Below, one piece after another: positions 313-54,148 of a stretch of DNA of 64,000 bases. The notes under the pieces are model-generated. The model was given only the letters and a program-made list of their open reading frames with translations, ran no database searches and was not told the origin of the DNA. Source of the DNA: Ptychomitrium polyphyllum (taxonomy: Eukaryota); NCBI GenBank assembly GCA_973851085.1, contig OZ316776.1, positions 8,308,001 through 8,372,000 on the forward strand. The letters are read 5' to 3'. A program made the translations under genes and the position numbers. Position 1 is the first letter of the stretch. Every line of letters begins with the position of its first letter.

Positions 313-1126
313 AAGAAGTTACCCTAATTTTTGCACATATTTTTTGTATGGGATATTAGACTTGTCTGTGCTATCTCTTACTGTCATTAAAAAAAGGTAC
401 ATTCAGGTCCGTTCACGAGCATCGATTTTGAAAGTTTGTTGTCTTGCAATGTTGTCCTACATTCCTGTCCTTACCATGTCACCTTCCACTTTGTCTCGGG
501 ACTTGGATATTTCTCCGTATACACAATTGGCTGACGAAGAAATCTCAACATATGTACCGCATATCTCAGCAACGGTCGTTTCTGTACACTTAGTCTTGCC
601 AGTTGCCCTGTTAACAAGACATTCTTTTCTGTGTTCGTTTCATACTCGAATCAGAAACAAAACCAGAAAACCTTCGCAAAAAACATGCGGATTCTATCAC
701 TTTCCGAGCTGATTCTTGCCGACCAGTCAGAAATCTCATTCCGAGATACTGAACCCTCGGATCTTCTACGATCAGATTCTGAAAACGTGAGATTTGACAA
801 GCACTTGGGATGCAATGCGAAAAGGGTAACCATATTGGACACTGCAAGCTCCCAAGTCCCAACAGTCTGCACTAGCTCTGTAGGTACTCCATCTAGTAGA
901 TATGAGAGTGGATACAAATGACCTCGTTTGTATCTCAACGCCGTCCACCTGGAGAGTCCACAACGAAAGACTGGCAACCTCTTATCCAATACCAGCGATG
1001 CTGCTCATTTGGCAGCAGTTGAGCGCAAGCTTCAACCCTGAGACTTCGGTTCAATTACCGTCTCTCTGTATCTCTCTTCGTTCCTCGATTCAACACACTT
1101 ACCACCCTTTCTCTGCTGTTAACGGC

Positions 1127-22446: not shown

Positions 22447-23355
22447 TCAAGCAAGCTTCTTCTCCAGTAACAAACTGCTGGCGAAAGACAGATCAAAATT
22501 CTGAGTGGGAGGATCTCCAATGCAGGGGAACACAGCATCGGCTTTAGTGAAATCCTCATTCTCAGTGTACCCGCTCTTGGTCACAATGCATACCATGCCT
22601 GCAGCTTTAGCAGCTGTAACCCCAATATGACTATCCTCAATCACAACACACTTCTCGGACTGCACATTCAGAGTAGTCGCAGCCAGCTGATAAATTGCGG
22701 GATCTGGCTTCTTCTTAGGAACTACATCGCCTGCAAAGATCTTCATGACATCCGCTCGCTCATCCCCCAGCATAACGCGCACAATTGCCGACACAGCCCT
22801 CTCATTGGAGGTGCTGCACACCGCAACCTGCACGCCCTTGCTGAGCGCTTCGTCAATCAGCGTCGCCACGCCAGGCCGCAATGGCAGCTGCCCCGACTCC
22901 ACCAAGTCCATGAAGAGATCCGTCTTCAGCTTGTGCAACCCCGCCACGAAATCCTTCCGCTGCGACTCCTCCACAACCTCCGGCCACCCCACGTCATTGA
23001 AGTAGTGCGTCATCCGCTCCTTGCCGCCTCCAATCTCCAGTAGCTTCCCGTAAAGCTCCACATCCCATGTGGTTTGCAATCCATTCTCCTCGAAAGCCTT
23101 ATTGAAGCTCACTCTGTGCCCGTCGCGCTCTGTGTCCACCAGCACGCCGTCACAGTCGAAGAGAAGAGCCTCGGGCAACGCCGACGCCACCACATTCATG
23201 CGCCATGTTCTCTGCTTCCTAGCTCCAGGGGCGACCAAACTAGGAATGCTGATCCTTCCGCTCCGAAAAAACCTGGAACCCAACTGGGGAGGATTGGAAG
23301 CCAGGGACGAGGAGTGGAAGACGGATTGCAAGGTCACCATCCCCGCCATCGCCAT
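22447..23355 (-). CDS. CBBY: Plastid HAD phosphatase of the CbbY (xylulose-1,5-bisphosphate phosphatase) family, intronless
   Basis: Transit-peptide-like N-terminus; FDCDGVLVDTERDGHRVSFN, IGGGKERM, VCSTSN, KKKPDPAIY, VVIEDS. Confidence 0.92.
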   Translation of the reverse strand: MAMAGMVTLQSVFHSSSLASNPPQLGSRFFRSGRISIPSLVAPGARKQRTWRMNVVASALPEALLFDCDGVLVDTERDGHRVSFNKAFEENGLQTTWDVELYGKLLEIGGGKERMTHYFNDVGWPEVVEESQRKDFVAGLHKLKTDLFMDLVESGQLPLRPGVATLIDEALSKGVQVAVCSTSNERAVSAIVRVMLGDERADVMKIFAGDVVPKKKPDPAIYQLAATTLNVQSEKCVVIEDSHIGVTAAKAAGMVCIVTKSGYTENEDFTKADAVFPCIGDPPTQNFDLSFASSLLLEKKLA

Positions 23356-25416
23356 TTTGGAAGCCTCACAAACATTTGTCTAGATTCTTGAGTTCTGGGA
23401 GCGCAATGCCCAGTCTCCTGGAGTGCTTTCAGTGCCACACATCCTCCTGGATGAGATTTGGATTCTTCATTTGGTGACTTCGGTTCTGCCAATCTGCGCC
23501 AAGATGAGACTTGGACTATTCCATTAGTTAAAATTCTGATGCATTTCGTGCAACTTCTGTGGTTGTGTGTTCTCGTCGATGGGCTGTAGATGGCGATGAG
23601 CTGATCGATATCTGGAACTCAGTGGCTCCTTTCAACGGTTGTGTAGATGTGCCGCTCGGAGACGATTTTCCAGATTGTGACTTGTGTTTCAGTGGCAACT
23701 CTGTGCTTAGCACTAATTACTACTACTGTCAGGGACTCAGCTTGTCACTGCCATTGCTCTCCCTTCTCTGTACAAAATAACCAAAACGTTAAGCAGAGTG
23801 CCACTCGATCGTATTTCCAATCATTTGCTTTCAAAATTCTTAGCAATTATGAGATTGAATCAGGATTACAAACTAACAGCTAAGTGGCCAATCGAGTAGA
23901 GGTAGTTTAAAAGAGGTTGTTTGGTAAAGGTTGTTTTTACTCTGGAGATTCATCAGAAATTGTTTCTATAGTCAAGAATTGCACCAACTATAAAATTGTG
24001 ATGAATAATCCTATGGTCTACTACATTTACTCATTCTAAATCAATTCTTTTTCCTTGCTATAACATTCTTTCATGCATGCTCAAAACATCTTCTTGGAAA
24101 GAAATAATTTGATTGTATGTAAGATATAAGTTCAAGTGGAATTTTAGGAAATTTAAAAGCCAAGTCACTAAATTAGACTTTTGTCCTTATGTCTTTTCTA
24201 TTACATTCCTTCATTGTTATTTATTATTCATTTTCCACTTTCAAAATGAAAAAGTCACAAGCTTTATCCACAAGATTTTGCACTACGCCTATTGAATTTT
24301 TTAATTAATACTAAAGACCTCTTCACATTTTATAAATTGGCTCATTGTAAGAAATATGAAGTTGTGCTTCTAATCATTAATAACAATACATCATTTTAAA
24401 TATAACCAATAGTCATCAAACTTCAAACAATAGCATTGCATGGTTTTGTGTTCTTAATTTTGATCTCTGTAATATTACAAAGACCTTGTAGAAGAAATGC
24501 CTAAATGAAAAAAATGCTTCCTAGTCATTTAAAAAAATCCATATGCTTCACATGATATTATTTATGTGTGGACTTAGTACAAATAACAAAATAAACTATT
24601 GTCTCATAAATATATACTTCACAATAGTCACTTCTTTCAAGTAGTATGCCTAATTATATATATTATTAGTTTATAGGTTTAATTTTCCAAAGCTCTACTC
24701 TTATTAACTATACAAAAGATGGATTATTTTACATAACCAATGTTGTAGGCTCTTACAATGTCTTACAAAGAAAGTTGATCATCAAAATATAGGCACAATG
24801 TTGTAAATGAAGTCTTAAAATAAACTCATCACTTAATTAACTTCCCTTTACTAAATCAAAACACAATAAGTAACAATGTCATTAGAAAAAGTCATTACAA
24901 TAAATCTCTTTGTCAATCTAGAATAAGAAAGATATGATAAATCAAAAAACCAATTGTTACAAGAATTAATGGATTAATATTCACTTTGAACAAACTATTC
25001 ATAAAACTATAATGTAATAAATAAAAAGTTTGCTACAAAAGATTCTATTATTGAGCGCCCAACCTCAGACCCAACCTTCCACATTTCCTACTAATTTAGG
25101 CGTTGCCAACCTAGGTTTAGCCTACAGCCTCCCATGAAGACGGACTCCCGTTCTCTCCATATTCGATGTTTCTCCAAACATACTGCAAGTGGCAAATATC
25201 ACACGAGCCGATGAGCAAGTAAAACCAGACGTCAAAAGTAAAACAGACAACTGAAATTTGTAAGCAACACAAGCCATAAGGTAGGAGCATACTTAATCTG
25301 TATGTACCATGTTCCACCATCTGCAACATAATAAAAAAAAAGCTAATGCGCATAAAGCCATTGTTAGGCTCCCCGTCACCGGTGTAGCACTGATCACACT
25401 TCCGGAGCGTCTGCAG

Positions 25417-25831: not shown

Positions 25832-27719
25832 TCATGCTGCCAACGAGAGCACATGTTCGGCTAGCTGCTTTGCTGAACCTGGCGCTGCCATCTCCAGCGC
25901 AGCCCTTCGCATCCTCTTCTGCACTGCATCGTCTCCTGCTAAGACAGCAAGACCGTTATCCTTCCAACCGCTTCTTACTTCGCATGGCACCTCGGATGGA
26001 CTCACACTCCGCCCCAACATTTCCCTAACCATGCACAGTCGATCGAAAAGTGAAGCTAAGTGGCACGGCCAGAAAACACAAAATCGTTCAGTCAAGGACA
26101 CGGAGGGTACGAGGGTCGGCCACAGCACCTAGAATCCTCAAGACCGCTGTCGCGAGACTCTCTGCATCGAGATCTCCCTCTGGTAGGATGACGGCAGCGC
26201 CGGCCTCAGCCATGGCCCGAGCGTTCTTCGTCTGATGATCCTCAGCTACAGAAGTGGCCGGAACCTGTCATGACTCCCCACGCTCAGCGCACTCTTGCGG
26301 ACACATCAGCAGAGAATGCAACAATCCAGAGCAGAGACCATCGACGCATTTCGTGCCAAGGAGTCTCATGCTGAAGAAGCACTTCCATTGGAACTGACAC
26401 CACATCTCTCGTCGTCCGAAGCTCGTACCAGAATGGCCGGCGTGGCAGTCACCAGCAACTCGCTGCAGGTTATTGCACCTGCCCTTGCTACGACGACATC
26501 TGCACTCGCATACATCATTTCCATGGCGTCCACATACCTGCCACCCATCCAGGAACCGCATCAGTGAACTCTTCTTCGCGGGAGGCCACCGAAGAGCCTT
26601 CCGCATATTTCGAGCTCCGAGCGAGCTTCGACCACGACAGAGTCATGCAATCACCGGTAGCAGAACGAGTGGAGCTCGATCACCACTTTCCCAGGTTACC
26701 GGGAACCCGCAACCTAGTGGACGTAGGACAGGGGTTGCGAGTACCCACGGCAAAAGAGCCAATCGTGGGTGCGTGCCAACTCTTCTCCGGGTGGTGTCGT
26801 AATTCGTCGCCCCGGTTTGCCAGATGATGTACCTCCGCGGGTTCTGCTCCAACAAGGATACGGCTATTCCTGCCATCGCCTCGTTGACGAGACGGGCCCC
26901 AAGAGATCCTCCCATCACACCGACGACCTCCTCGCCTCCGCCCGCATCCAACCCCGCGCCACCGAAAAACGTTCGCAGCGCAGACAACCGGTCAATCGGC
27001 TGCTGGAGCACACGCCTCGTGGGATTCCCAACCAAGACGCATCTGCTCTCGGGAAAGTAGACGGCAGCAGCCGCGAAAGCCACGAACACCACCTTCGCAA
27101 CCCTGCCGAGGATGCGGTTGCTCAGTCCCGCATACGCGTTCTGCTCCTGGATAGCCACCGCGACCCCACTCAGGGCTGCCATGAGACACAACGGACCTGC
27201 GACATAGCCCCCCGTTCCGACCACCACATCGGGCCGAAACCTGCGCACGATTCTCCAGGAAACCCACAGGCAGAGGAGCAACCGCACGGGCAAAAACACA
27301 TTGGACAGGCTCCAAAACGGCCGCCGTATCGCCACAGCAGGGATCGGCGAGATCGCATAGCCTGCTCTGGGCACTGCAACCCACTCCATCCGCTCTCTGG
27401 TCCCCACGAACTCGATCTCGGCCGCCGGATTCAGCTTCCCCACCTCGTCCGCAATTGCGAGAGCTGGATACACATGGCCCCCCGTGCCCCCCGCGGCAAA
27501 CAGAATTCTAGGTCCTGCGCGCACAGCATCGCTGCTCCTCTCGTCCTTCCCGGTCGCTGCACAAACGCCTCTAATCCTCTGGACGTCCCTCAATCGTGGC
27601 ATCACCGGCCTCGGAGCAGGGGTACAAATGGAAAATGATACATTCCAAGGGCCACACTCGAATACTCCACACCCCGGAGAGGACCGCAGTGAGCCACAGC
27701 TCGCCCATGGCAACGCCAT
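25832..27719 (-). CDS. murG: Plastid MurG (GT28 lipid II-forming GlcNAc transferase); exons 27719-26749, 26537-26429, 26264-26129, 25935-25832
   Basis: AAGGTGGHVYPALAIA, VVVGTGGYVAGP, QEQNAYAG, MGGSLGA, WQTG, ARAGAITCSEL, HQTKNA; N-terminal extension; GT-AG introns; start codon uncertain. Confidence 0.93.
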
Positions 27720-29720
27720 TTCAGTCCAGCCCTGTCGACAACGAACAAGCTCGCCTGCCAAACATCAGCGTAAAAATCCAAACGGGCGTGCACCAAATGA
27801 AAATCGCAAGGACAATCAACACAGGCATCGTAGTGCACAATCAATGCGGACCAGAATACCCTAGTAAAATTTCCAAGTTGTGAAACTCATCATCTTGAAA
27901 ACTGAAGAGCGCCGAGAAATCTTAAATTCTTATGGGAATCCGTCTATTTTTAGCGCTCAACTTGCAGCAAAAATATGAACCTTCACTTTGCGTCCATATA
28001 AACCTTCGCTTATTTTCCACTTGAAACTTCAGTATGAGCTTTCACTTAGCTGCGTGAACTGAATACAGGTAAGGCATTTTACGCAGGTTTTTGTACATTA
28101 TTTGAAAGTATAACAATAAAAGTAAAACTATAAAAGTGGAACGTAAAAGCAAAAAGTAAGTTTGATATGTGCCGACAGACAGACGGAGATGACAGGACAA
28201 GAAGGTTTCGTTTACAGAAACCTTAGACTCCCTAAAGATTTTAGTCGAAAGTTTACGATCTTTAGCCAAGACATCCTTTAGTTTAAGTTTCAAAAAATTG
28301 AGGCTCTGCATCATAGCTGACTGAAGAAAGCAGCAATTTTTGTCGCATGCCCCTTAAAAGCTCCAGCAGACAATGCAGGTAACATGTCCTACTAGAGACC
28401 AATCAACACATCCCTTTGTGTTTGCCGAACAAAACGTCACTTACCATTACACGTGATGTTGATAATGTACAGGCTGGGATTATTGAAGCACAGATGTAGC
28501 TGCAATCTAGTGTGTCACAGTTGGATGATTGTTACACGCGAACTAAGCCTATGATTAAACTACCTGCGCCAAGGCTTGTCTCAACCTGGAGTGAAGTGGT
28601 TAGCAGATTATTAGCAGAATCCGAAGGAAGAAATCATTGAAGGGAAGTTCAACTCAGTTGTATGGATCATTCTTGAGTCTTCAAAATAAAGAACCTCAAA
28701 CTTTGATGGAATGTAAGCATGCCCTTGTCTTTGGAAAGGAGAATCAACATCCTTTGCAAAGAAAAAGTACAAAGCAACTTTTGTTGAAACTATAAAGGTT
28801 ATGTAAGATAGATATATCCATGGCCATAAGTTTAAGTTCAAGCTATTTTTGTTCGTGCATATCATGCAAGAAAAGTTTCGTTTGTTGAGTAATACTAGAG
28901 GTGATTGGGAAATAGGTGTAATGTGGAATAAGGTTTGACATGATGGATGATAAAATCCCATAATATTTATACTTAATTTAAAAAATTGGAAAATAAATAT
29001 TGGATGGAATGGACAATATCAATGTAGGTGTACTTCATTTTAAAATCATATATATGATGTTCCAGGGTACCAATTTATAGGGAGTATGGTGTTAAATTCG
29101 TGGATTGATATTCAATACTATGCGTATTACTTTGAGTCAATGGTTTTTTTCTCTTGTACTTTAAATAGTGTTGATTTGGCAATATAAAATATTGTAATGG
29201 AATCAAATGTTTCTAAATTCATGAATATTTTGAATAGAGTTCAATTTTCTCCCATATTCAAAAGTAAATATTACATACAAAGGTAAATACTATACGATGC
29301 AATAATGTAAGCCCAAACAGTCTAAGAAGTGGCTAATCCATCTATTAAAGTGAAGTCAGGGAAAGGACATGGAGATGATACTGCTACTGCAAGAAGTCTT
29401 GGTGTAGATGAAGAGGAATCTAGATTTAAACGAGGAATCCATTAACATTCCGATCACGATTAACGGATGAACGAAATGGGTTCGACAGTTGACTCACGTC
29501 CCATGATCACTGCACACTAATGCAGAATTGCACACTATCGATCAGATTTAGAATCTAGACGAGGGGATCTAGATGCTACATCGATCAGATCTAAAATCTA
29601 CACGAGGAGGTCTAGAGGCTACTAGTAGATTGAGAAGCTCGTTGTTATTCAACAGGATCATCGATCGACTGGGTTGGGTTGTGTTGTTTGGTGTTTGGTT
29701 TGCTGGAGATTGGGGAGGGA

Positions 29721-32445: not shown

Positions 32446-32826
32446 ATGGCAGGCCCTGGTGAGGATTTCGATCACCTCTTCAAGGTCCTCTTGATAGGAA
32501 ATTCTGGTGTCGGGAAGAGCAGTCTCCTGCTGCGGTTTACGGCCGGGAAGTTCGATGACCTATCACCGACAATTGGAGTGGATTTCAAGGTCAAGATGCT
32601 AACTGTACATGGGATTGCATTTGCGAGGCAGCACGGGTGCTTGTTTCTTGAAGCAAGTGCGAAGACGAGCATCAACGTGCAACGCTGCTTCGAAGAGCTC
32701 GTGCACAAGATTATAGACACGCCCAGTTTGACAGCCGACACGGCTCAAGTGAGATCGAATCTCTTGAGACCTGACAAGGCATCGGACCAAGGCTCTTTTA
32801 CACCAGGTGGCCTGTGCAGCTGTTGA
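32446..32826 (+). pseudogene. RabC/Rab18-type small GTPase with in-frame internal deletion (pseudogene or truncated variant)
   Basis: G1 IGNSGVGKS, G2 PTIGVDF, G5 EASAK and C-terminal CSC are present; G3 WDTAGQE and G4 NKxD are absent; junction near 32605-32610. Confidence 0.8.
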
Positions 32827-37029: not shown

Positions 37030-40000
37030 ATGGACAGGTATAGGGACAGGTCGAAGTGGTGCAATCTTCGTGAATCTGAATTGATGGGATTGGCAGCGAT
37101 GTACTTTGCATTGCTACTGATGTTGTCGTGGGCTTTGGTTGTGGATTCTATGACGCTTGAGGAATTCGCTATTAAGGAGAAGAACGTGCGCCGGTTAGCC
37201 GACGACGCGCTTCGATCGGCTCAGGATACAGAGGAATGCGGTAAGAATGCGCTCCACATCTTGTTGGAAAAGATGACAGGGTTCGGTCTGCATAGGATCT
37301 GTATCTGGTTTACCAAACGGGATTGGTTGTGTAGGGCTTTCGCTGTGCGTTGACAATTGCTCCCGACATGCCTGCTCAGCGATTCACAACGACAATTTCT
37401 TGTGTGCCAATACGTTCAGACCCGTCGCGGATTGCGATAGGCTTAATCCGAACAAAACATGCATGCAATTGCAGCTCAACTTCGGCAAGAATGGCTTCGT
37501 ACGGTAAGCCGAACGAACATACTTCAGCGTTAGCTATCTAATGATTTGTCTAGTTTTTCTTGCGGTGAGAGGGGTGACATTCCTGACGTTTCATAACTCC
37601 AACCTAAATTTGTGAGAGAAAACTCCGTATTGTAGAATTCCGTCATCGTTTCGCAACTACTCGAACGAAAATCTGAGGCCGGAAATCAAACGAGCAATCT
37701 GCTCGCAGTCGAATCTTCAGTTCTCGGCGAACAGCAGAATCAACCTCACATTCTGGAACTACTTCGGCTCAGCAGAAGGTGTTTGGCGAAGCTATCCTGG
37801 ACGCGTAAGCTCCAATCCTCTTGAAACATTCGGATACTCGGTGCGCAATTCATGGAGCTGCCAATCGTGAACATTTTATGCCCGATAAGTGTTAATCATT
37901 TTAGCAGTTTTTGGGGTATAATCTAAGCTGTGGTTCTATCTAAATGAATGGAACTACTAGGTAGCCGAGCCTGACCAAGGCTGCGTCACATTCGATCCTC
38001 GCAAACGACCTTGGCACATCGATGCAACGGCGGTTGTGAAGGACCTGGTGGTGCTTCTCGACACCGGACACGCAAAAACCGACACTTTCGACTTGGCAGT
38101 GAAATCTGTTTTGGAGCTTTTCGATACATTTCGGGTCGACGATTCTGTCAATGTTGTGACGTTTGATTCGACAACTGCAGCTCTAATGCAACCACAATCT
38201 GTAAGACTGTTTTGGCTCAGTAACTCAGCGAGTCAGCGCTGCATCTCCTTTGAGGTGGTTACACCGCTACAATTGTAGATATTCAATTTTGAAATTTTGG
38301 GTTTGTATCCAAGCCTATGCCCATTTTTTACCTTTCCTTTCTTCTCTGTACTTGATATGGATCATCATGCAGTTGCCTGTAACCGTGAATAACAGCAACG
38401 ATCTGCGCACGAACTTCAATATATCCAAATTGAAGAATAGCGCCAATGGCTTCTCGAACCTCGCTCAAGGATTCGACACAGCAAGAGCAACGCTCAGTCC
38501 TGCGAGCACACTGAAGGTGAGTATGTGTTGTTTCCTTCTTTAAGACCAATCCGCCATAATTTTCTTTTGCCTCTTCAAAGTCTCTATGGTTCGGAATTAA
38601 CACTTCCACTGCTCCCTGACAGATGTTTCTCGTATTCACTGACGGCCAGTTCTCCAAGAATCCCGCTTTCGACATAGATGTAACCCTCCAGCGTACGCTT
38701 GCGAATCTCAATGCGAACAACGTGATCATCTTCTTTTTCAGCATTGGTCCGTGCGAACAAGACAACCCTCCTGATCCCCTCACAAACCTTCGCAACATTT
38801 CATGTCAAATGAACAGCTCCGTGACGTAAATTACCAAAGAAGATGCGTTCTGGAATCCACTCTGGGCCATTCGACCGTACTTCGATTACCAAGCCAAATT
38901 GCGATTCAAGCAGGATGTCACATTCTGGAGCAATCCCTACATCGACTTTGATGGTCTGGGCGAGGTTTCCACTGTCACTTACCCAGGTATGCCGCTTATC
39001 ATCCTCAAAAGCTAAAATCCTAAATCTGAAGATCTCTATTATAAATGCACGACAGAAGGGATTGATATTGACCACACCGGAGGTCCTTTCTGTGCACAGT
39101 ATTCGCGGACGGCATCTTGTATGGAGTTGCAGGCATTGACGTGTTTGTAAACGAAAGCGACTACATCGTCATCCAGCAGAAAGCTGCGAATCCGAATGTT
39201 CGAGCAATCCCATTAAAGTGTGAAAAAGTAAACGTGAGTAGTAAATTACAGCTCTAGCCCAGATGCTCGTTACAACGCCCTGTGTTTCAGATTTTTGGGA
39301 AGGATGGAAGAGGGCTCTAATATTTGAGAATTTTTTTTCCACGTTGTGTGTGGTTGCAAAGGCGGTTGACATGAGGTTGATCGATGTTCTTCGTTATCTG
39401 CAGGTTAATCTTAGCCAATGCACGAAACCTGTAGACCCAACCCTAAAACCACTCTGTGAACAAGACGTGTATGTCAACGAGAAACCGGCGGACGTGTATG
39501 AGAAGCTGCTGTGCTGTGACACATGCGCTATTGTAAATCCCAATGGGCGAAACCTTCTTCCAATATATTTGTCCGTGGTATTTACTAGCGCTTTTGCCGT
39601 GGTTCTGATGATTGTCATCTGTGTCCTGGCTTCCAAGTACAGAGCTGCTCAGATGTATGTTCGAGAGATTCAAGAAGGTATCGTTCCATTTCTATACTTA
39701 CTGCTCACAACTGCAATTTCTGTGTTGCAAGTGTGTCCGCGTTCACATCTTTGTCGTTATTTCTGGTTACATGAATTACATACGTCATGTAAATGTTGGA
39801 GGCACGTATGTATTCATGTTCTGCTGGTGGTTTCAATTTTCAGATTTTGCGAAGGCATCTATATCAACCAACCTGTTCACGTACAAGGAGTTGAAAAGAG
39901 CGACTCGTAATTTTCACAATGACAACAAGCTGGGCGAGGGTGGATTTGGCGAAGTTTTTCTGGTAAGCACAAGGGAGGAACTCTCTTTTGTAAATCACGG

Positions 40001-41533
40001 AAGTTCATGTTCTACGGCTTTTCTAGGTTAATCGCACTGATATAGATTGATGGATGCTTTGATTGATTCCACAGCTTAACCCGTTGGTTTGGACTTGAGC
40101 AGGGAAAGATAAGCGATGGTTCACAAGTGGCAGTGAAGAAGCTCTCTGATGACTCCAAGCAAGGGAAGCCCCAATTTTTAGCAGAGGTGATGATCATTAG
40201 CAAGGTGCAGCATAGGAACCTTGTGAAGTTGTGGGGCTGCTGCGTTGAGGGGCAGCACAGACTGCTCGTGTACGAATATCTAGAGAAAAGAAGTCTTCGT
40301 GAAACCATACTAGGTAATTTTTCACCGTTGCATCCACTGAAATCACAAAGATTGTTAGTTGGATTGAAAGCTAGAGATTCAGTTCAATGTTTCTTCAACT
40401 TCTTCATATACTAGACTCTAAAAACCAGAATATTACATTGCAGGGACTCCGGAGGAAATCCTTCATATAGACTGGCCAACTCGGTTTGACATTGCAGTAG
40501 GAACTGCTCGAGGTCTTGCATACTTGCACGACGAAATCGCTCCTCGTATTATTCACAGGGACATCAAAGCCAGCAACATCCTTCTCGATGCTCACCTCGA
40601 AGCCAAAATCTCTGACTTCGGACTCGCGAAGCTCTGCCCAGATGAACAAACCCATTTGACCACAGCCATTGCAGGCACTCTGTAAGCGCTTCTAACTGCA
40701 CTTGGTCATATTCTACTTTCAATTATCATAGAGACTGTAGTCAACTTGGAAGCAATTCTATTCTTTTAGTCTGTTGTTAGTCTTGTGTCATTTCAGGCAT
40801 GGCACTAAATGCAATAGTATGTCACTGAAATTGATTCACAGAGGTTACATGGCACCCGAAATCACACGAGGGCAGCTCACAGAGAAAGTGGACGTGTTCA
40901 GCTATGGCGTCCTCTTGATGGAAATTGTGACTGGGAGAATCACAATGAGCGTTACCAATTATGGAACTCCATTCTGCCTTATTGACGAGGTGAGTCCACA
41001 AATATGTCTGTTGTTAACAACTCGTATTTAAAGGTGTCATTACGTTTCACTAAGTTTCCTGGTCATCATCAATCAGTATGAAATATGAATTTCCATTGTG
41101 TGTGCAGATAAGGGATCTATACAGGGAGGCTCACAAGACAGGCGAGGAGGACTATCTACTCCTACTTGTGGACCGAAACCTTCACAACTTGTTCCTGAAA
41201 GAAGAAGTAATAAGGGTGCTGAAGATCGCACTACTATGCGCAAATGATAACCCAGCCTCTCGCCCTTCAATCACGCAAGTGGTGCACATGCTTTTAGGTA
41301 CTCAGACTATTCCGGAGCATGTGTTGAAATACCTGCTGCATCAGGATTTGCAGTCGTCCCCGACTTTATACGATTTGGAAGTGTCGGATGACAATAATTA
41401 TTCCGGTATCTTGCCTGCCAATGCTGGACGCGAGCTTTCTCATTCCTCCGGCACTCCTGCAGGCACCACGAATACAAGTGGACTAGACAGGAGTTTATCC
41501 CTTGCCAATGTTGCTAGTTCCGAGGGAAGATAG
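37030..41533 (+). pseudogene. dCache/VWA-ectodomain receptor-like kinase, copy 1 (13 exons), with an in-frame TAA at 38827-38829
   Basis: Signal peptide; [35 protein letters not shown]...FTDG, WSNPYID, GVAGIDV; TM helix; kinase [26 protein letters not shown]; pseudogene status depends on one base. Confidence 0.8.
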
Positions 41534-42242
41534 TGTTAATTTGCTCCACCTACTGTTTATGTACATTATATAATCTTAGGTTTCATTCTTCAGTACTAGT
41601 GTTGTTTTTTTCTCTAAAACCGAGTATAGTATTTGATCATTTGGGTTTGCTTAAAAAATGTTATCTGCTGCATTGCAAGAACAGGTGAAGCAGCCCCGGA
41701 GTACCGAGGAACAAGTGGACAAAGCAAGCGAACTAGTACTGCATCCTGGATGGATTTTAGTTTCTGTTGGGCTGTCAACACTCATTTACACTTTATGTAC
41801 AATGGCAGTGAGTTATTGGTTGAGTCAGTTCAAAAGGCTTGTCAACATGATCTGCCGTGAGTGTGACCGAATGTCGCTTGCAGAGCAGTCCAATGATTTC
41901 ATCACTTGAAGGTACAGCAGAATGAGGACGTCCAGACTGCATGTCAGCCCTGCATCTGAGCAGCTGCAGCAACAGTGTCACTCTGTGAGCTTTGATCTGC
42001 CGCCTCTCATTGTGTCAATGCTTGGTTGTCTCCAGCTCGTACCTGGCGTCTGTGCATATTAATTGGTTGTCATTGCCGCGTGCAGTGACCAGAGACACTC
42101 ATTCAGAGCTTCAATGTGCACAGAAGATCGAATTTCAGACAATCTTCCACATATAGATAAGCAGGCAAAGTGCCCAGACTCTGCAAAGAGCTGAATGAGT
42201 CCAGAAGAAACATGTTTTCACCTTCTCCTGGGAATGAGCAAA

Positions 42243-42314
42243 AGGTCCCGGCGAGATTTGAACTCGCGTTACTGGATTCAGAGTCCAATGTCCTAACCGC
42301 TAGACTACGGGACC
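42243..42314 (-). tRNA. tRNA-Gln (CTG)
   Basis: Reverse complement GGTCCCGTAGTCTAGCGGTTAGGACATTGGACTCTGAATCCAGTAACGCGAGTTCAAATCTCGCCGGGACC folds as a cloverleaf; T run follows. Confidence 0.96.
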
Positions 42315-43342
42315 AGATGCTTCAGAAGACTTATCAACGGTCCTAACAGCTCCACGTCCGAAGGGCTTCAGGATTCTGTATTATAATGCACGTGACGTAG
42401 ATGTAAACAATCTATTTTCCACTTCAAATTCTGGACATCGCTTTCATTCGTTGATTAACAAACTCCTTTTAAATGCATTATGAAACTTGATTAGAAGCAA
42501 AAGATAGCATGGAATAAAAGGCAATGGCAACAACATTATTGATAGGCTGTTTCTTTGCAAGCTCCACTCATGAAGCATTGCTATTGTAGCAAAAATGCTC
42601 CTTATTTTTTAGCAACTATTTTTTCTTCATCATTTCTTTTGCTTATTAATTTACCATGTAAAATTAAGGTTGCAACAATGATTCTTTGGGAGTATTAACA
42701 TGTTACACTAACTCGCGTCAAGTTAGACCCTTCCAAAATAACAAATAAGTTGCTTGGATTTAGCCACAGCATCATAAACATCAAACTTCTAAGAAAAAAC
42801 TAAAGTAAATACATGTACAAACTAGCTACATACTACTTCTGGGATGGACGAACACAGGTACATATGAGATGATTCTGGTTCGTAACACTGCTGCAGCATT
42901 TACCATGCTAATGTTGTCCATTGTTTTCAAGACAACTGCCTAATCATGTAATCGGTAACCCCAGAGTATCACCTAAATATAACTTGAAAAAAATGGACGT
43001 CGTGAACGCCCTGAGCTTCATGTGGAACATTAACTGTCGACTCTCTTTTCCTCATTCTCAAGACGCACTAATCTTTCTCCATCGTCCTTCTACTACCTAC
43101 CCGAGTAACATCCGGATACAAAACCAGTAACCCAAAGCATAGTCGCAGCATCGCACGAGTATCGCATAGATATCATTCAAAAAGGGGATGCAGGGTCGCG
43201 CACTTGTGGCAAAGATTGTTTGATTAGGTCGTGGCCTTAGATTGCGCAGAATGAGCAACGCAGAGCCCAGACACAATTGAAGAAGAAAGCGAGAGACCGA
43301 AAAAGCTCTGCAAAGACGCCGCTGAAGAGCACGGACAGACAC

Positions 43343-43370
43343 AGAGAGAGAGAAAGAGAGAGAGCGAGAG
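43343..43370. repeat. GA-rich microsatellite upstream of receptor kinase copy 2
   Basis: agagagagagaaagagagagagcgagag. Confidence 0.75.
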
Positions 43371-44039
43371 GATTGTTCTCGCAAGCACATCCGCTCGCTC
43401 CATCGCTGCTCCTGTCCCTCGGCGATGGACGTGGATATGAGAGCGCAGAGCTTGGCAGCGATAACAGCCTCATCATGTGACGAAAGCTGGAGCGCCGTCA
43501 CGGCGGCCAGCTAGATCGCTTCGCCGTTGCGTACGCTGTGATTCACTTTTCCAAGTTTATTCGCGCCGCCGCGGGGCTGCCTTTCTTTAGCAGATCCATT
43601 CCACGCTCACCTTTGTCGTTCATACAGAACCTACCGTGTCATTGTTGCGCTTTCCCTTGACAGGCAGTCTTGTAGCTGTAGCATACCTAGGAGTGCCGAG
43701 TTGTCGGGACGTCCATGATGAATGCGCGAAGTCGGTGGCAGTGGATGAATTGTTGATTAGTTGCAGGAAGTGCGGAGAGATGGTTGTATACTGTAGCTTG
43801 TGGAGAGGAGCGAGCGCTGATGATTTTGTTGCACGCGCTTGCGCGAGAGAGAGAGCGGAGGTGTTGTTTCGTGCGGTTTCTTGATGATTTACAGGAAGTG
43901 ACAGCGCGAGAAACAGGGGAGGAAGTAAGGATAGGTTTTTTGTTGATGAGTGCGTTAAGGCGCGTTATCAGTGCTGATCGTGCTTCGGAGGAGCGGGGAG
44001 AAAGAGTTTTAGTTTGTTGATTGCTTGTTGATGTTATTG

Positions 44040-47000
44040 ATGGAGAAGCAGAAGTGGAGTCTGGTGTTGCAGTTGTTTTTGCTGCTGATTTCATGCATAG
44101 GAGATGACGCGGTGGCGGTTGATTCGTCGCGGGGAGTGGAAGAGTATTTAGCGGACAAGGAGAATAAAGTGCGGCTTCTTGCCAGTGACGCCCTTCGTTT
44201 AGCTCTTGATAGAGAAGAATGCGGTACTGGCTATCTACTGGAAGAGTGTTTTTTTTTGGTCCTCTTCAGTCGTCTCTATGGCATTAGTCTGGCTTTTATG
44301 TTTTAAGGAGACTGGTGGATTGGACTTGATCTCCTAGCTGCGGGGAGGCGCTGTGGTTATTCAGCTTTCTAGTGCACCGGAAATATATTTTCGTATCTAC
44401 GTTGATCTCATCGGAGATGAAGCGATCGTTAGTTCTACTAGAGGTTGATTTCTGAATGCTTTTTGTGTGTTGCAAAATTTCAGGTCTATCGCACTGCGCG
44501 CTTCGCTGCGCCAGGCATGCGTGTTCCCCGACGGCCAATGACAATTTTACGTGCGTTGCGGCTCTAGGACCAGTTTCAGATTGTAACAGTTCTTGCGTGG
44601 GAATTAAATTAGACTTCGGAGGAAATGGATTTGTGAGGTACGGGAGCCTATAAAATTTTCATACCCTAGAATTAAGTTTCTGGTCACTAGGCTACCATCA
44701 CTTCCACATGATGAGAGTGGTTTCTAGAGGAAACTCTAGTTTCTGTTCATATCCTTTGAATATCTTTCATGAGAGCATTGCCCTTTGGCTGCAGACTCCC
44801 GCCGTTTTTCAGAAACTTTTCAAATTCGAATTTGAGTCCGGAGATTAAGCGATCCATCTGTGCGTATTCGAGTCTTCAATTTTCTGCAAGCGGTAGTAAT
44901 GATGATCGCTTGCTCCAGAATATTGCGCTCGGAACCGCAGAGGGTGTCTCTCGAGCTTATCCGGGCCGAGTAAGACTCTCCAGCTCTTTATTTGCAACGT
45001 TTTAAAGGAGTGCGTGAATGTTAACTTCAATGTGGACGTTTATTACTTAACCTGCGCTGGTTCTGTATTCGCAGGCTGCGAATCCGGACGGGGCCTGCAT
45101 AAATTTTGATCCCCGCAAACAACCGGGGTGAGTATTTGGAAGAAACTCCCGATTATATTTCTTTAAGTAACCATAACTGTAAGAATGTTGGTTGTATCTT
45201 CGTGACAGCTATTTTCTTGCGATGTAGGTACATTTTGTCAATATCTGTTGTGAAAGATCTCGTAGTGCTGCTCGATACTGGACAGCAAGATAATTCAACT
45301 TTCAAAGTTGCAAAGAACATTGTTACAGAGCTTTTCGACACTTTTACTACCAGCGATTTTGTAAATGTGGTTTCATTTGACTCCACGCGTGCAACTCTAT
45401 TGCAACCAACCTCGGTACTTTTCTCTCAGCTCAGCATGCTGCTACCAGTCGTTTTACTCAATCGATGCAGCGAACCTCTAAATATTTCAACTCTAAGCTA
45501 AATTTGTTAGTACAATGTGACAGGGCAGTGCTTCAGTTATGCTTACCTGACGCCTCCAATTTGCAGGTTCTTGCAAGAAGCAATGCAGACCTACATTTTT
45601 CATTTGGTATACCCTCCTTAATAAACAACCCAAATGGCTTTTCGAATCTCACTCAGGGGTTTCAGAGAGCGATGACCACCTTCAATTCAACAAGTAAACT
45701 TAAAGTACTTCTTCAAACCCCTTCATACATCTCTTCGTGCAGATATGCTGTATATAACTTAGATTGCTTGTTTACTGTGGTCCGTCCAATGGTGCTATAT
45801 TCATATTTATAAGACGATCAAATGGATTTTCAATTTACCGTAAGCAAATTAGGCATCTGCAGGTCATCTGCTTGTATTTCATTCGTTAGATGCTCATTTG
45901 AGTTTCTAGAGGTTGTGTTGAGATTGATTCTTTGCTCTAATCACTGGGTCTGTTTGGTTTGTTAGATCATTGTGGTGATTACCGACGGCTATTTCTCCAC
46001 AGCTGGAAATCTCTCCACTACAGCACTTCAACAAACAGTGTCGCTTCTGAACTCGGAGAGCGTCGTGGTTTTCTTTTTTAGCCTCGGTACCGGTGATGGA
46101 AACAACCCTGCTAGTCCACTTATAGAGCTAAGGAAATTCTCGTGTCGGCTGAACAGCTCTGTGATTTACGTTCGTACCGGGGATGCGATTCGAAATCCAC
46201 TTTGGGCTATTCGCCCTTACTTTGACTACCAGGCTACAATGCGATTTAAGGAAAACGTTACATTTTGGACGGATGTTTATGCGGACGGCAATGGTCAGGG
46301 CAATGTGTCTACCGTGAGTTATCCTGGTACGTGATTTGTGTCGTGGTCACCTAGATCATGGTTCTTCCCTACACTAAGCTATATATGAATTGCCAAAACC
46401 TCTGTACTTAGTGTCCGCTAACACTTTTGGAAGTAAATGTTGATGATCTTAACTGGGATTGAGTGCAGTTTTCAAGAACGGAACCTTGTATGGTGTAGCT
46501 TCTATTGATGTACCTGTCAACTACACGGATGGAAACATCATCAAGCTGAAATATGTGGATCCAAACGTTCCTGCGATCAGATTGACCTGTCAAATGCAAC
46601 AGGCAAGGTTATTTTTATACGACTCAACTGTGCATTACGACATGCCTTTTTGTTCTGGATTATCCATGCGAGAGTCTTGACTAGAATCTTCAATGAATCT
46701 TGACATGTTGTATTCTGAATTGGGGCATTGCAACTTCGAAGCTAAAAAGGCTACTTATTTGAATGAAAATCTGCAGTAGGCGTATTATTTCTGCGAGTTT
46801 TGCTCTAGTATTCCAGACATATCTTTGTATTGCTTTGTTATTTTCTTCTTTCCAATATAAATTTCAGAATGTATTGCTCACACAAGTCTATGCCCCATCT
46901 CCACCTCAGGTCAATCTCACCCAGTGCACCAAGCTTGTGGATCCAGACTTACGACCTCTTTGTGAACAGAGCATATATATTGGCGAGCCTCCTGCATCGT

Positions 47001-49106
47001 CGTTTAAAAAAACTCTTTGCTGCGATTCTTGTGCTTTTTTAAGCACAAAGACAAAGGCCTTTCTTGCCAAGAAGGCAAATCGCCTCCGTTTGGGTTTGGG
47101 AGCAGTTGGGTTATTTGTCCTCCTTCTCTGCGTAGTGGCAATTCTAGCATACAAGTGTGTTGCTGCTCGATCGCCGGTTCGAATATTGAAAGAAGGTAAA
47201 GCTTTGAACACCCTGCTTGGGTAGATCTTTCTACCAGCACCTGCTCTTTTCAGATGCCGTTTGACGTTTAGGGGATGTAAGTACGACTCCACCCTCATCA
47301 TTGCTAACCTCGAAATGTATACTTTGTGGACAGGTTTTGCAAAAGCATCCTTATCGACCTATTTGTACACGTACAAGGAACTTAAAGCTGCAACTCGCAA
47401 TTTTCGTGAAGACAATAAGCTCGGAGAGGGTGGGATTGGAGAAGTTTATTTGGTAAGTCTTAACAATATTATCAAACTTGTCGTCAGAGAACAACTTATA
47501 TTGAAGTAGAGCAAAAAGATGCAACTTGTTAGTGAAAGAGTGTGGATGATGATAATAGTCCACGAGTTTCTTCTACTCGAGTTTCTTATAAGTTAAAGAC
47601 ATGGTTGATTGGACAGGGGCGAAACAAAGATGGTTCTCAAGTGGCCGTGAAAAAGCTCACGAAAAGTTCGAAGCAAGGAAAGCGTGAGTTTCTTGCAGAT
47701 GTTGTTAATCTTAGTAAGGTGCAGCACAAGAATCTTGTCAAATTACGCGGATTCTGTGTAGAGAGAAAGCATAGGCTCCTCGTCTACGAGTACCTGGAGA
47801 AGAAGAGCCTTCGTCAAACACTTCTTGGTAATCTTCGATCTCTTAGTCTTGATATTGTGGAAAGTTGCAACAGCATGGGTAGAATTCGTTGTTATGAAAT
47901 AGGAGTGCTGAGACTAATTGCTTGTATGTTGGTGATATGCAGGTAGGGCAGACGACTCAGAACACGTTGATTGGTTAACACGTTTTAAAATTGCCATTGA
48001 TACTGCTCGAGGTTTGCAACATCTACACAATGAAATCCAGCCTCAAATTATACACGGAGACATTAAAGCTAGCAACGTTCTGCTAGATTCTAACCTCAAT
48101 GCCAAGATATCTGATTTTGGACTCGTCAAGCTGTGTCCTGGTGACAAGACTAATTTTACTACAAATCTCGCAGGCACTATGTAAGTACTCACTGTCGCAT
48201 GTAAATGGAACTGTGAGATAAATATGAGTTTGTCTTGTTTAATTCATAAGAATGTACATGTGTATTGTAGGAGCATCGAGGCTGTGAAAACTAGCTGCAA
48301 CATCGAAATGCATCATACTATAAAACAGTTCACATTCTTTTATATTAGTTCACTCAAGATTGTCTTAGCAAGTACACTTTACTTGTCTGGCTTTCTTGTG
48401 GTCTTGACTGTAGGGGCTACATGGCGCCAGAATTTATCATGTGTGGTCAGCTGACAGAAAAGGTTGACGTATTCAGCTATGGTGTCCTTTTGATGGAAAT
48501 TGTGACCGGCAAGATTACCACAAGTCGCAGTCGCTCTGGAACGATGTACTTCCTTCTAGATGAGGTTAGCATGCCAACTTAATTTTGTTATTTATAAAGT
48601 CACAAATGTTAAATTACCTTAATAATTACCTTTATTATTGCCTTCATGTAGGCAATGATCTGGATTAAGAAATTACTAGCGCAGAGTGCAACTTTATATT
48701 CTGATTAAGAGCTTGTCGTTCGCAGATAAGAGGCGCATATCTAAGATCATGTGAAGCAAACGACGAAGAACTCCTGTTTGGCCTTGTGGACGCAAGATTG
48801 GTTGGTAGATTCGGAAGAGAAGAAGTTGTGAGGGTATTGAAGGTAGCACTCCTGTGCACAACGGATAGCCCGACAATCCGGCCAACTATCTCTCAAGTGA
48901 TTCTTATGCTCTCAGGGAGTCAAGAAATTCCCGATCATCTCCTGCAAGACTTCGGAACGAGAGGTGACCATTCCCGACGCATGTCAATGCAATCATCTCC
49001 CGATTTATCGAACTTACAATGGTGGGAGGACGAAAGTTTAGATCCGCCTCTTCTTGTTGAACGTCCACCAAATCGAACAGGATCTGTATCAGTACCAACG
49101 AATTAA
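44040..49106 (+). CDS. dCache/VWA-ectodomain receptor-like kinase, copy 2 (14 exons), non-RD kinase
   Basis: Signal peptide [52 protein letters not shown]...[41 protein letters not shown]; kinase [26 protein letters not shown]; start could be 44031. Confidence 0.88.
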
Positions 49107-51575: not shown

Positions 51576-54148
51576 ATGGGGAGTCAGGAGGCCCAGCGCG
51601 TGAAGGCGAGCTTAGAAAACCAAGCCAAGGAAGCGCAGGACTATGTCGGTGGTGGACAAGACAAGAGCTCTGTCATTGCTGCACAGGTCGTTGTTCCTTC
51701 GAAGGTTGGCGAGGAAGCAAACGAGGTAATGAATGTGTCACAGAACTCTGACGGTTAGAATTGGTTCGAAGTCTTTGTTCTGGAATTCGACATCGTGAAT
51801 CCAATGCTGAATTCACAGGAAATTCAAATTGCTAGGGAGTTACCGCGGTTTAGGGGAAGTCTAGTTGAGTTTGAACGGCACTTAATTGCGATTGAAGTTT
51901 CGTCCAGTCCGGTTGAAACGCGAATTTGTGTTACTGCAGGAACTTAGGTTTTTAAAAAATGGAAACTCCAAGCTCAGGGTGCAGTTGAAAGACTGTGAGG
52001 AAGCGTTTCAACTAGCAAACCGTGAGACTGAGAAGTCGAACAAAGTGGCTAGAGACGGGAAGCAGAAAATCCACGAGCTTGAGAAGCAGAATGAGGATTT
52101 GAAGAAGAACGTGCATGCTGCTGGTGCTAAGGCAGCTGAACTAGAGCTGAAATTGAAGGATGCCGAGGACCAGTTCAAAGATGCGCAGAGTGCTATCAAG
52201 GTGCTGGAGGCTAAGCTGAAGAGTGATGAGAAGAGCAAAGCTGCTCTGAACGCCGATCTTGATCGGTTGAAAGCAACTCTCCACGATCGGGAATTGAAAC
52301 TGAGGAGCTTGGACAAAGAGATCACCGAAAAAGAAGAATCGTTGAAACACAAGCTGGTCGAAAAGAACATCAAAGTAGAGGAGCTTTCCTCTAAGGTGAT
52401 TCAAATCCTTGCAAATTGAGCATTTCGTGGGTAAATGTATCATAAGTGCTTTATATTTAGTTTTGTTTTTTCACTGTAAATAATTCGATAACTTTCTCCT
52501 ATTGACATTTTCGGTCGCAGGCCGAGCATTTCGAGTCTCGGGCAATCCCGGCGGAGAAGAAAGTCTCGGAGCTCGACTCTAAGGCCAGAGACTTGTCAGC
52601 TGCAGCGACTGGCGTAGAAGCTGATCTTTCTCACGAACGAGAAGTGAACAAACACAAAGAGGCCTCAATAGCTGAGTATCAGGAAGAGCTTCATAATGCC
52701 GTCTCTCGAGCCAATCGCATGGGAGCAGCTCTAAGGACCGAAGAGGAGAAGATGGCCGCTCTGAAGGCAGAAGCAGAAGAGCAGAGGACGAAACTTGAAG
52801 AGCGGGCGGTTGCGGCGGAGGCAGAAGCAGAGAAGCTCCGGACGAAATCTGCTGAAGACTCCGCCCACGCGCGTGTGTTGGCGGAGAGAATTGGCGCTCT
52901 GGAGAATATGATCACCGCGACCAAGGATCACAGTATGGAAACGAAAAAGAAAATGGACGCGAAATTGAAAGAAGAAGCCAAGGAAGTAAGCTCACAGGCT
53001 GAGGAACGAAGCATCGCCATCACGGAAGCTAATGAGATGAAGACCGAGAAGGGTGGCTTGTTATCCACTATCGCTGACTTAAAGTCCAAAATGTTCGGTG
53101 TGGCCTCCAAAGTTGAAGAGAAAGACGCCGAAGCGAAAGCGAAGGCCGAGGAAGCCGAGAACGCAAAAGCCGAAGCTTCAAAGCTTGAGACAGCAGTGAA
53201 GTCGGTTTCAGAACAAGCCGTACAACAGGAAGAAACGAAAGAGAATCTGGAGTCGGAGCTGGAAGGGGTGAAAGAGAAAGCCAACGAAGCAGACAGCGCC
53301 ACTACGGCGTTGAAGCAAAAAGACTCCAAGCTGGGAGAAATAAACCACGGCTTGCAATCCTCCGGCCAACGGTTGGCTGATCTCGGTGAGAAGCTGTCAA
53401 CATTGCGGAGAGAGCGTGATGAAGCTGTTGCCTCCGCCGACTCCAACGCCACCAGGTTTGCTCCACCCTCTTCACCTTATCGTTTTCTACGCAACTTTGC
53501 ACATGATGATCAACCTGCGAGTGCACCCAATTCACCTGATTTAATGTCTACATATGGAACCTCAACAGGTATACAACATAGAATTTCACTTGCCTATATT
53601 TTGATCTTCACACGTCTCAGTATCATTTAGGTGTAAGTCGAGAAGTGGATGAGGTGAACTCCTTTCCACTCGTTGTGACCCTTGGGATGCTTCGGACGTT
53701 TGTAGTGTCGTAATCTTTGTGCATTTCTCCAGACGTCCGCTTGAGTATCATCTGTACATCACATCAGTGCCCACCACAATAACCTCTAGGCCGCAGTTGG
53801 GTAAGTGTATGTAGCGTACTCCTTTGGGATACATGTGATGGACGTTTAGAAAGCGCCTGTTTTGATGGTGACAGGGTGGACGAGTTGGTGACGAGGGTTG
53901 CGGATTTGGAGAGTAAGTTACGTGACGCAGAGGAGCACAACTCCAGCTTGGAGGATCAGCTGCAGGAGCTTGGTGTGAAGGTCGAGAAGCATGCGTCCGC
54001 GATTAAGGGCCGTGAAGAGTATGCTCTTCACAAGGCAGAGAAGGCACGCCAATTGCAAGATGAAGCGGTGGATATGGAAAAGAAGAACATGAGAGAGGGA
54101 GAGGAACAGTTTGTAGAGACGTCCACAACTCTGAGCAGCAATGCCTGA
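51576..54148 (+). CDS. Long coiled-coil protein of unknown function; exons ~51576-51725, 51940-52395, 52521-53455, 53875-54148
   Basis: E/K/A/L-rich heptad-like ORFs joined in frame by GT-AG sites; no globular motif recognised. Confidence 0.75.

What the first reader, a model, noticed from the sequence alone, without database searches (positions are those of the whole stretch)
37030..49106. Tandem receptor kinases with an alpha2delta/CACHD1-like dCache+VWA ectodomain: candidate amino-acid-sensing RLKs
Seen: after splicing, both genes give signal peptide - Cys-rich segment - W.YFGS.EG..R.YPG - FDPRK(R/Q)P(W/G) - VWA domain (KDLVVLLD...TDG) - W...Y.D..G.G.V.TV.YPVF....L.GV..IDV - Cys-rich linker - TM - RLK/Pelle kinase. 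Established: this motif order, with a VWA domain inserted in a dCache_1 domain, is the architecture of animal calcium-channel alpha2delta subunits and CACHD1. The dCache_1 pocket binds amino acids in bacterial chemoreceptors and gabapentinoids/leucine in alpha2delta. It is not one of the standard angiosperm RLK ectodomains (LRR, LysM, lectin, malectin, DUF26, WAK). Inference: a single-pass small-molecule receptor kinase of non-flowering plants. Such domain fusions may already have been noted in bioinformatic surveys; I know of no functional characterisation.
Basis: partly seen in the sequence, partly recalled or inferred. Interest (0 to 1): 0.92.

Follow-up and report, generated by a model that had tools for sequence, protein, structure and literature searches.

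The report
Moss Cache-VWA receptor kinases, one broken
Two neighbouring moss genes code for receptor kinases whose outer part is related to the amino-acid-binding part of animal calcium-channel alpha2delta subunits; the family is already catalogued but I found no test of it, the first copy has a premature stop and is likely dead, and the second has a changed pocket, so it likely senses something other than a standard amino acid.

Summary
The architecture is real: signal peptide, Cys-rich segment, Cache module split by a VWA domain, Cys-rich linker, one TM helix, RLK/Pelle kinase. Ortholog ectodomains match alpha2delta-1 (E 1.6e-17; predicted fold Z 28).

It is not new. Gumerov 2022 states this fusion in streptophytes and lists the Physcomitrium orthologs of both genes. 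metaRLK 2.0 names a bryophyte 'VWA' RLK family. I found no functional study.

(1) Gene 1 has an in-frame TAA at 38827 (Tyr in 13 of 13 relatives) and is likely a young null.
(2) Gene 2 is open (923 aa) but lacks the carboxylate-binding Arg and Trp and has a non-RD (HGD) kinase. R-to-Q and HGD hold in 5 of 5 members of its clade.
(3) The model shows one Cache module, not a double one, and the VWA MIDAS is degenerate.

The tandem pair is kept in Physcomitrium and Ceratodon. Best reading: intact gene-1 orthologs are amino-acid-sensing kinases and gene 2 is a retuned sibling. Binding is untested.

The parts
37030..41533 (+). Gene 1: Cache-VWA RLK, 13 exons (37030-37240, 37335-37503, 37636-37804, 37961-38200, 38373-38516, 38623-38986, 39100-39233, 39404-39677, 39844-39962, 40103-40313, 40444-40681, 40842-40989, 41108-41533); 948 codons with one internal stop; likely null
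   Evidence: closest relative Ceratodon KC19_2G134300 (81.5% ectodomain, 93.9% kinase)
37991..38014 (+). Gene 1 first half of the amino-acid motif, F194-DPRK-R199-P-W201, followed by His where the family has Tyr/Phe
38039..38826 (+). Gene 1 VWA domain (exons 4-6), MIDAS degenerate (DTGHA)
38827..38829 (+). In-frame TAA, codon 380 of gene 1
   Evidence: Tyr in 13 of 13 other rows; run X1 contig, depth 55, no other letter
38935..39140 (+). Gene 1 second half of the motif: Y417-x-D419 and D446
39404..39677 (+). Gene 1 exon 8: Cys-rich linker and TM helix (hydropathy peak at residue 535)
39844..41533 (+). Gene 1 RLK/Pelle kinase, RD type (VAVKK, FLAEV, HRD, DFG), with a private R652W
44040..49106 (+). 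Gene 2: Cache-VWA RLK, 14 exons (44040-44223, 44484-44637, 44795-44969, 45075-45127, 45228-45414, 45567-45704, 45966-46326, 46469-46602, 46910-47195, 47334-47452, 47617-47827, 47943-48180, 48414-48564, 48726-49106); open frame of 923 aa
   Evidence: closest relatives P0001 (86.8% / 92.3%) and Ceratodon KC19_2G134200 (82.6% / 89.6%)
45105..45228 (+). Gene 2 first half of the motif, altered: F-DPRK-Q-P-G; an extra intron (45128-45227) splits the Gly codon
46275..46509 (+). Gene 2 second half of the motif kept: Y-A-D and GVASID
46603..46909 (+). Gene 2 intron 8, GC-AG, at the place and phase of gene 1 intron 7
   Evidence: ortholog P0001 reads straight across this junction
47334..49106 (+). Gene 2 kinase, non-RD: HGD (48053-48076), alphaC Glu to Asp (FLADV, 47689-47703), Gly-loop Phe to Ile; VAVKK Lys, catalytic Asp and DFG kept

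Best explanation
This is a conserved tandem pair of moss single-pass receptor kinases with a VWA-split Cache ectodomain; gene 1 belongs to a clade predicted to bind free amino acids but has a premature stop here and is likely a null, while gene 2 is intact and likely binds a different small ligand through a remodelled pocket. Shown: architecture, motif states, the stop, orthology and tandem order. Inferred for intact gene-1 orthologs: an amino acid binds in the Cache pocket (Tyr, Arg, Trp on the carboxylate; Tyr, Asp on the amino group), the pocket closes, and the change passes through the disulfide-rich stalk and TM helix to a dimerised RD kinase. [quoted passage not shown] The gene-1 stop would leave a 379-residue fragment without the second half of the pocket, the TM helix or the kinase; the message is probably degraded, as 7 introns lie downstream.
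For: Profile of ortholog ectodomains: alpha2delta-1 E 1.6e-17, CACHD1 7.5e-11, PctA 7.5e-5. AlphaFold model of the Ceratodon ortholog of gene 1: pLDDT 91.5, pTM 0.92; best folds alpha2delta-1 Z 28.3, rmsd 4.2, 374 aligned, and CACHD1 Z 24.2, rmsd 4.9, 364 aligned. Motif in 111 aligned family rows: Y/F 109, R 105, W 108, Y 105, D 99. In PctA, R126A lowers affinity 61-fold and D173A abolishes binding (PMC8915833 passages). Gene-2 clade: R-to-Q 5 of 5, HGD 5 of 5, alphaC Asp 4 of 5; fixed differences from the other clades fall in the Cache halves (10 of 55 invariant sites) rather than the VWA (1 of 57), Fisher p 0.004. Amine-binding Cache domains arose by losing this Arg; PacA has Gln at the nearest position (PMC10589655 passages). 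Gene 1: Tyr at the stop in 13 of 13 relatives; more changes than its Ceratodon ortholog with 3 of 4 outgroups (56 vs 21, 56 vs 17, 42 vs 18); His after the motif Trp in 0 of 111 family rows. Orthologs are adjacent in Ceratodon (KC19_2G134200 / 134300) and Physcomitrium (LOC112287630 / 631).
Against: No ligand binding or kinase activity is measured for any plant member that I found. The fold was predicted for an ortholog, not for the window's own proteins, and I could not inspect pocket geometry. Gene 2 and 2 of its 4 clade relatives also lack the motif Trp, which amine sensors keep as an aromatic, so the pocket may be ligand-blind. I drew the regions for the 10/55 vs 1/57 count after seeing the R-to-Q change, on only 5 + 7 related rows. 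For gene 1, the fourth outgroup gave 46 vs 31 (p 0.11); its count of changes at family-invariant sites (6 of 252) equals that of intact P0001; its kinase is still 93.9% identical with all catalytic motifs. The only run covering the stop (X1) may be the source of the window. 146 of the best 150 library hits have no kinase, so the pocket need not be wired to a kinase; some of these representatives are fragments of kinase-bearing proteins.
Confidence: 0.55

Rival explanations
1. Gene 2 binds no ligand. It is a co-receptor, scaffold or decoy for gene-1-type receptors, and its kinase is weak or inactive.
For: Both Arg and Trp are gone in gene 2 and in the Ceratodon and Physcomitrium orthologs; the kinase has HGD, alphaC Asp and an altered Gly-loop. 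The pair has stayed adjacent in three moss genomes.
Against: The new pocket residues are fixed, not random (Q 5 of 5, N 5 of 5, S 5 of 5). Gene 2 shows no rate increase although its neighbour is broken (40 vs 66, 47 vs 37, 41 vs 50, 38 vs 29). The catalytic Lys, Asp and DFG are kept. Other gene-1-type paralogs elsewhere in the genome could still be partners; no genome was held to check.
Confidence: 0.25
2. The real ligand is a protein or wall polymer bound by the VWA or Cys-rich surface. The amino acid in the Cache pocket is a folding or trafficking cofactor, as the pocket affects trafficking in alpha2delta-1.
For: R241A in alpha2delta-1 acts through channel trafficking (PMC8915833 passage). 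Most homologs are kinase-less type I membrane proteins, some with added C-type lectin domains. 16 cysteines are conserved in 85-109 of 111 rows.
Against: The VWA is among the least conserved parts between Ceratodon and Physcomitrium orthologs of gene 1 (62.6% vs 93.5% for the first Cache half), and its MIDAS serines are lost in this clade.
Confidence: 0.15
3. Gene 1 is functional: the TAA is an assembly error, is read through, or is removed by a cryptic intron.
For: Only one lesion in 948 codons; all 12 introns are canonical; the kinase is 93.9% identical to the ortholog. 40 in-frame donor-acceptor pairs of 60 nt or more could span the stop.
Against: The X1 contig agrees at depth 55 with no other letter; the context is not a homopolymer. 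Of the 8 best-scoring cryptic pairs, the best acceptor scores 2.3 (true acceptors 2.1-12.2) and they remove 31-95 codons of conserved ectodomain. The gene shows a rate increase with 3 of 4 outgroups.
Confidence: 0.08

Closest known systems
Streptophyte single dCache_1AA-VWA Ser/Thr kinases (Gumerov et al. 2022, PMC8915833)
   Same: Same fusion, stated in one sentence of the paper. Dataset S3 lists XP_024386590 and XP_024386595, the Physcomitrium orthologs of genes 1 and 2.
   Different: In the parts I read, no plant protein was assayed, and the tandem pair, the R-to-Q/HGD clade and the missing proximal module are not discussed. XP_024386595 occurs once in the dataset, in the representative list, not in the motif sheet.
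metaRLK 2.0 'VWA' RLK family (PMC13174206)
   Same: [quoted passage not shown]
   Different: The main text never mentions Cache (0 hits) and the passages seen propose no ligand. I did not check member ids; 2 of 14 supplement files were not searched.
Animal alpha2delta-1 and CACHD1
   Same: VWA inserted in a Cache module that splits the Y-R-W / Y-D motif; best sequence and fold matches.
   Different: They have two nested dCache domains (about 1100 aa) and alpha2delta-1 has a DVSGS MIDAS. The moss ectodomain is about 480 aa with one module, a degenerate MIDAS and a kinase.
Bacterial dCache_1AA (PctA) and dCache_1AM (PacA, PctD) sensors
   Same: Gene-1 clade carries the AA motif; gene 2 shares with amine sensors the loss of the Arg and the kept Asp.
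   Different: No VWA in the bacterial ones; they have a proximal module. Gene 2 has Gly where amine sensors keep an aromatic.
LRR-malectin (At1g56140-like), DUF26 and S-domain-1 RLK kinases
   Same: The kinases fall in one clade with these (94/96 support); highest identities outside the family, 54-58%, are mostly to LRR-malectin kinases. The labels LRR-VIII-2 and DLSV are recalled.
   Different: Different ectodomain; order inside the clade is unresolved.

Membership tests
dCache_1AA amino-acid sensor | Cache-type distal module (stalk helix plus PAS-like sheet), here split by VWA | tested here: met
   Ortholog profile hits PctA and alpha2delta-1; ortholog model aligns to alpha2delta-1, Z 28.3, rmsd 4.2, 374 residues
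dCache_1AA amino-acid sensor | Carboxylate half Y-x4-R-x-W, gene 1 and its clade | tested here: met
   F194, R199, W201 in gene 1; Y-R-W in 5 of 5 clade relatives; Phe at the first place in 23 of 111 family rows
dCache_1AA amino-acid sensor | Carboxylate half Y-x4-R-x-W, gene 2 | tested here: not met
   F-x4-Q-x-G; Gln in 5 of 5 clade rows, Gly in 3 of 5
dCache_1AA amino-acid sensor | Amino half Y...D | tested here: met
   Y417/D446 in gene 1 (behind the stop) and the matching Tyr/Asp in gene 2
dCache_1AA amino-acid sensor | Second, membrane-proximal PAS-like module | tested here: not met
   In the predicted ortholog model no strand of 3 or more residues follows 398-408, at pLDDT 82-96; the sequence match to alpha2delta-1 ends at profile position 395. 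Prediction only.
dCache_1AA amino-acid sensor | Measured amino-acid binding | not testable with these tools
   Needs ITC or thermal shift
dCache_1AM amine sensor | Terminal Asp kept, Arg lost, aromatic pair kept | tested here: not met
   Gene 2 keeps Asp and has lost Arg, but has Gly at the Trp place; 2 of 5 clade rows keep Trp
alpha2delta / CACHD1 | VWA inserted into a Cache domain | tested here: met
alpha2delta / CACHD1 | Two nested dCache domains | tested here: not met
   Ectodomain about 480 aa, one matched stretch
alpha2delta / CACHD1 | Canonical MIDAS DxSxS | tested here: not met
   DTGHA in gene 1, DTGQQ in gene 2; no moss-clade row has the serines
RLK/Pelle receptor kinase | Signal peptide, one TM helix, Pelle-type kinase | tested here: met
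   Two hydrophobic peaks per model, N-terminal and about residue 523-535; kinase groups with LRR-malectin, DUF26 and SD1 kinases. No dedicated signal-peptide predictor was run.
RLK/Pelle receptor kinase | Open reading frame, gene 1 | tested here: not met
   TAA at codon 380
RLK/Pelle receptor kinase | Open reading frame, gene 2 | tested here: met
   923 aa with one GC donor at a shared intron position
RLK/Pelle receptor kinase | Active kinase | tested here: inconclusive
   Motifs only: gene 1 complete; gene 2 keeps Lys, Asp, DFG but has HGD and alphaC Asp
metaRLK 'VWA' RLK family | Bryophyte RLK with Pfam VWA ectodomain | tested here: met
   Pfam VWA or VWA_2 above the cut-off in 6 of 8 homologs scanned; named relatives are Ceratodon and Physcomitrium

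The most novel reading that the evidence does not exclude
Mosses duplicated an amino-acid receptor kinase and retuned one copy. The gene-2 clade is a receptor for an amine-like or other non-amino-acid small molecule, coupled to a non-RD, immune-type kinase: a plant parallel of the bacterial shift from amino-acid to amine Cache sensors. This species has kept that copy and lost the tandem amino-acid sensor.
Probability: 0.2. Interest if true: 0.8.

Novelty: new member of a known kind. Interest (0 to 1): 0.5.

Why it matters
From my own knowledge, no plant receptor kinase is established as a sensor of free amino acids; glutamate-receptor-like channels fill that role. This family gives a direct test in Physcomitrium, where both orthologs are annotated and knockouts are routine: a defined pocket, known loss-of-binding mutations, and a natural sibling with the key Arg replaced. 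The window adds a natural loss of one partner. It is a poor test locus itself, and the fusion has been published twice as a bioinformatic observation.

Tried and rejected
No genome was held, so other paralogs in this species could not be counted. No RNA holder was listed for the locus; run X2 had no contig over the stop; neither says anything about expression. A first gene-2 model with a GT donor after 46607 broke the frame and was replaced; an alternative acceptor at 46868 (937 aa) stays possible, but orthologs match the 923-aa form. Complex prediction of the two Ceratodon ectodomains gave no verdict (score 0.00, alignments not used). One origin for all Cache-VWA RLK kinases is not rejected (AU p 0.11; with the Riccia protein alone p 0.26; with P0213 alone p 0.04), so repeated fusion remains a lead only; that tree used 22 of 50 kinase rows. 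The wide fold search was filled by VWA domains, so the Cys-rich parts were not tested for a known fold. The kinase search was dominated by double-kinase gene models. Paper searches with 0 hits; one search listed no paper with 'dCache'. One recalled paper id was not held. No look-alike among earlier scan findings by sequence.
Full report
Observation. The window is moss DNA by homology (nearest named proteins are from Ceratodon and Physcomitrium). I built both gene models from splice signals. Gene 1 spans 37030-41533 in 13 exons, gene 2 44040-49106 in 14. 11 of 12 gene-1 introns sit at the same column and phase in gene 2; gene 2 has one extra intron inside the ligand motif and a GC donor at a shared position. 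Each model has an N-terminal hydrophobic stretch, a Cys-rich segment, half a Cache module, a VWA domain, the other half, a Cys-rich linker, one TM helix and a kinase.

What was missed. Gene 1 has TAA at codon 380 (38827-38829). Gene 2 and 12 homologs have Tyr there (13 of 13); in the wider family the column varies. The contig of run X1 agrees at depth 55 with no other letter, but X1 may be the window's source, and X2 had no cover there. Cryptic introns could span the stop (40 in-frame pairs), but the 8 best have weak acceptors and cut 31-95 codons. Gene 1 has more changes than its Ceratodon ortholog with 3 of 4 outgroups (p 1e-4, <1e-4, 0.003; fourth 0.11), including Y202H and R652W at otherwise invariant sites. 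Its kinase is still 93.9% identical, so the loss is likely recent. I put a null at about 0.9.

Ectodomain identity. A 3-sequence ortholog profile hits alpha2delta-1 (E 1.6e-17), CACHD1 (7.5e-11) and PctA (7.5e-5) among solved structures. AlphaFold on the Ceratodon ortholog of gene 1 (81.5% identical ectodomain; 111 sequences) gave pLDDT 91.5, pTM 0.92. Its best folds are alpha2delta-1 (Foldseek E 1.4e-19; Z 28.3, rmsd 4.2, 374 aligned) and CACHD1 (Z 24.2), above lone VWA domains at Z 18.7 or less. After the last strand of the ligand module the model has a short helix and a confident Cys-rich coil, not a second PAS-like sheet. So it is predicted to be a single-module Cache. The MIDAS serines are lost in the moss clade but are common in the wider family (70 and 80 of 111).

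Family. The moss proteins form three well-supported clades. Orthologs of genes 1 and 2 are adjacent in Ceratodon and Physcomitrium. Full-length orthologs of 926-945 aa are called on contigs of 3.8-4.7 kb; I infer these are spliced transcripts, which joins ectodomain and kinase in one message for relatives. No RNA was available for this species. The representative library holds 1597 hits at E 0.001 or better; 4 of the best 150 carry a kinase, a lower bound since one kinase-less representative has kinase-bearing cluster members. Of the 13 library hits I looked up, those with names were mosses, liverworts and Selaginella; a fern (Psilotum) form without kinase came. The kinase groups with LRR-malectin, DUF26 and SD1 kinases. 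Other Cache-VWA proteins carry more distant kinases, but a single origin of the RLK-type ones is not rejected.

Two clades, two states. Gene-1-type and third-clade proteins keep Y-x4-R-x-W...Y...D and an RD kinase. The gene-2 clade has Gln for Arg (5 of 5), Gly for Trp (3 of 5), HGD (5 of 5) and alphaC Asp (4 of 5). Its fixed differences cluster in the Cache halves (10 of 55) against the VWA (1 of 57; p 0.004) or all other ectodomain parts (5 of 118; p 0.006). The regions were drawn after I had seen the Arg change, and the rows are related. Gene 2 shows no rate increase against its orthologs.

Mechanism. Established: in PctA, Tyr/Arg/Trp hold the carboxylate and Tyr/Asp the amino group; R126A lowers affinity 61-fold (PMC8915833). 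Amine sensors evolved from these by losing the Arg (PMC10589655). Non-RD kinases are enriched among immune receptors and work with RD co-receptors (PMC8872720). Inferred: intact gene-1 orthologs sense an extracellular amino acid and activate their kinase; gene 2 binds a changed ligand and signals with an RD partner (0.55 together). Rivals: gene 2 is ligand-blind (0.25); the pocket is a cofactor site and the ligand a macromolecule (0.15); gene 1 is functional (0.08).

What is known. Gumerov 2022 says that in some Streptophyta the VWA-inserted dCache_1AA is present in a Ser/Thr kinase and is absent from angiosperms; its Dataset S3 lists both Physcomitrium orthologs (section 12 read whole, passages, supplement rows 1-60 of 68 for Streptophyta). 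metaRLK 2.0 names a bryophyte-only VWA family of 60 RLKs (passages and supplement rows, 12 of 14 files). PMC10589655 and PMC8872720 were seen as passages; other papers only as search listings. Ten searches of open papers showed no functional study; subscription journals and bioRxiv supplements were not covered.

Verdict. Real, correctly recognised kinship, already catalogued, apparently untested. The window adds a likely null gene 1, a conserved altered gene-2 clade and a predicted single-module fold. New member of a known kind; interest 0.5.

Noticed in passing
window 42243-42314 (-): A tRNA-Gln(CTG) gene lies between the two kinase genes.
   Followed up: no
P0075 and P0119 (Ceratodon KC19_8G097200, KC19_2G286500): The same Cache-VWA ectodomain is joined, after a long cytoplasmic stretch, to a non-Pelle kinase far from the RLKs. 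This is either a separate fusion or a gene-model join.
   Followed up: partly
P0067 (Riccia fluitans) and P0213 (Physcomitrium XP_024368104): Cache-VWA RLKs whose kinases fall outside the window's clade; P0067 reads HSD and P0213 HGD, both non-RD.
   Followed up: partly
P0090, P0095, P0134, P0158, P0184: Homologous ectodomains with an added C-type lectin domain (4) or an ANF_receptor domain (1).
   Followed up: no
P0015, P0071, P0068, P0069, P0072: Kinase-less, receptor-like-protein forms (ectodomain, TM, short tail) in Psilotum, Selaginella, Riccia, Marchantia and Ceratodon.
   Followed up: partly
window 9175-9849 (-), 22447-23379 (-), 26643-27764 (-), 32446-32826 (+), 51886-54148 (+), 884-2401 (+): Ordinary-looking neighbours: adenylylsulfate kinase, HAD/CbbY-like phosphatase, MurG-like glycosyltransferase, intron-poor Rab GTPase, a coiled-coil protein and a plastid membrane protein. 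The labels are recalled, not tested.
   Followed up: no
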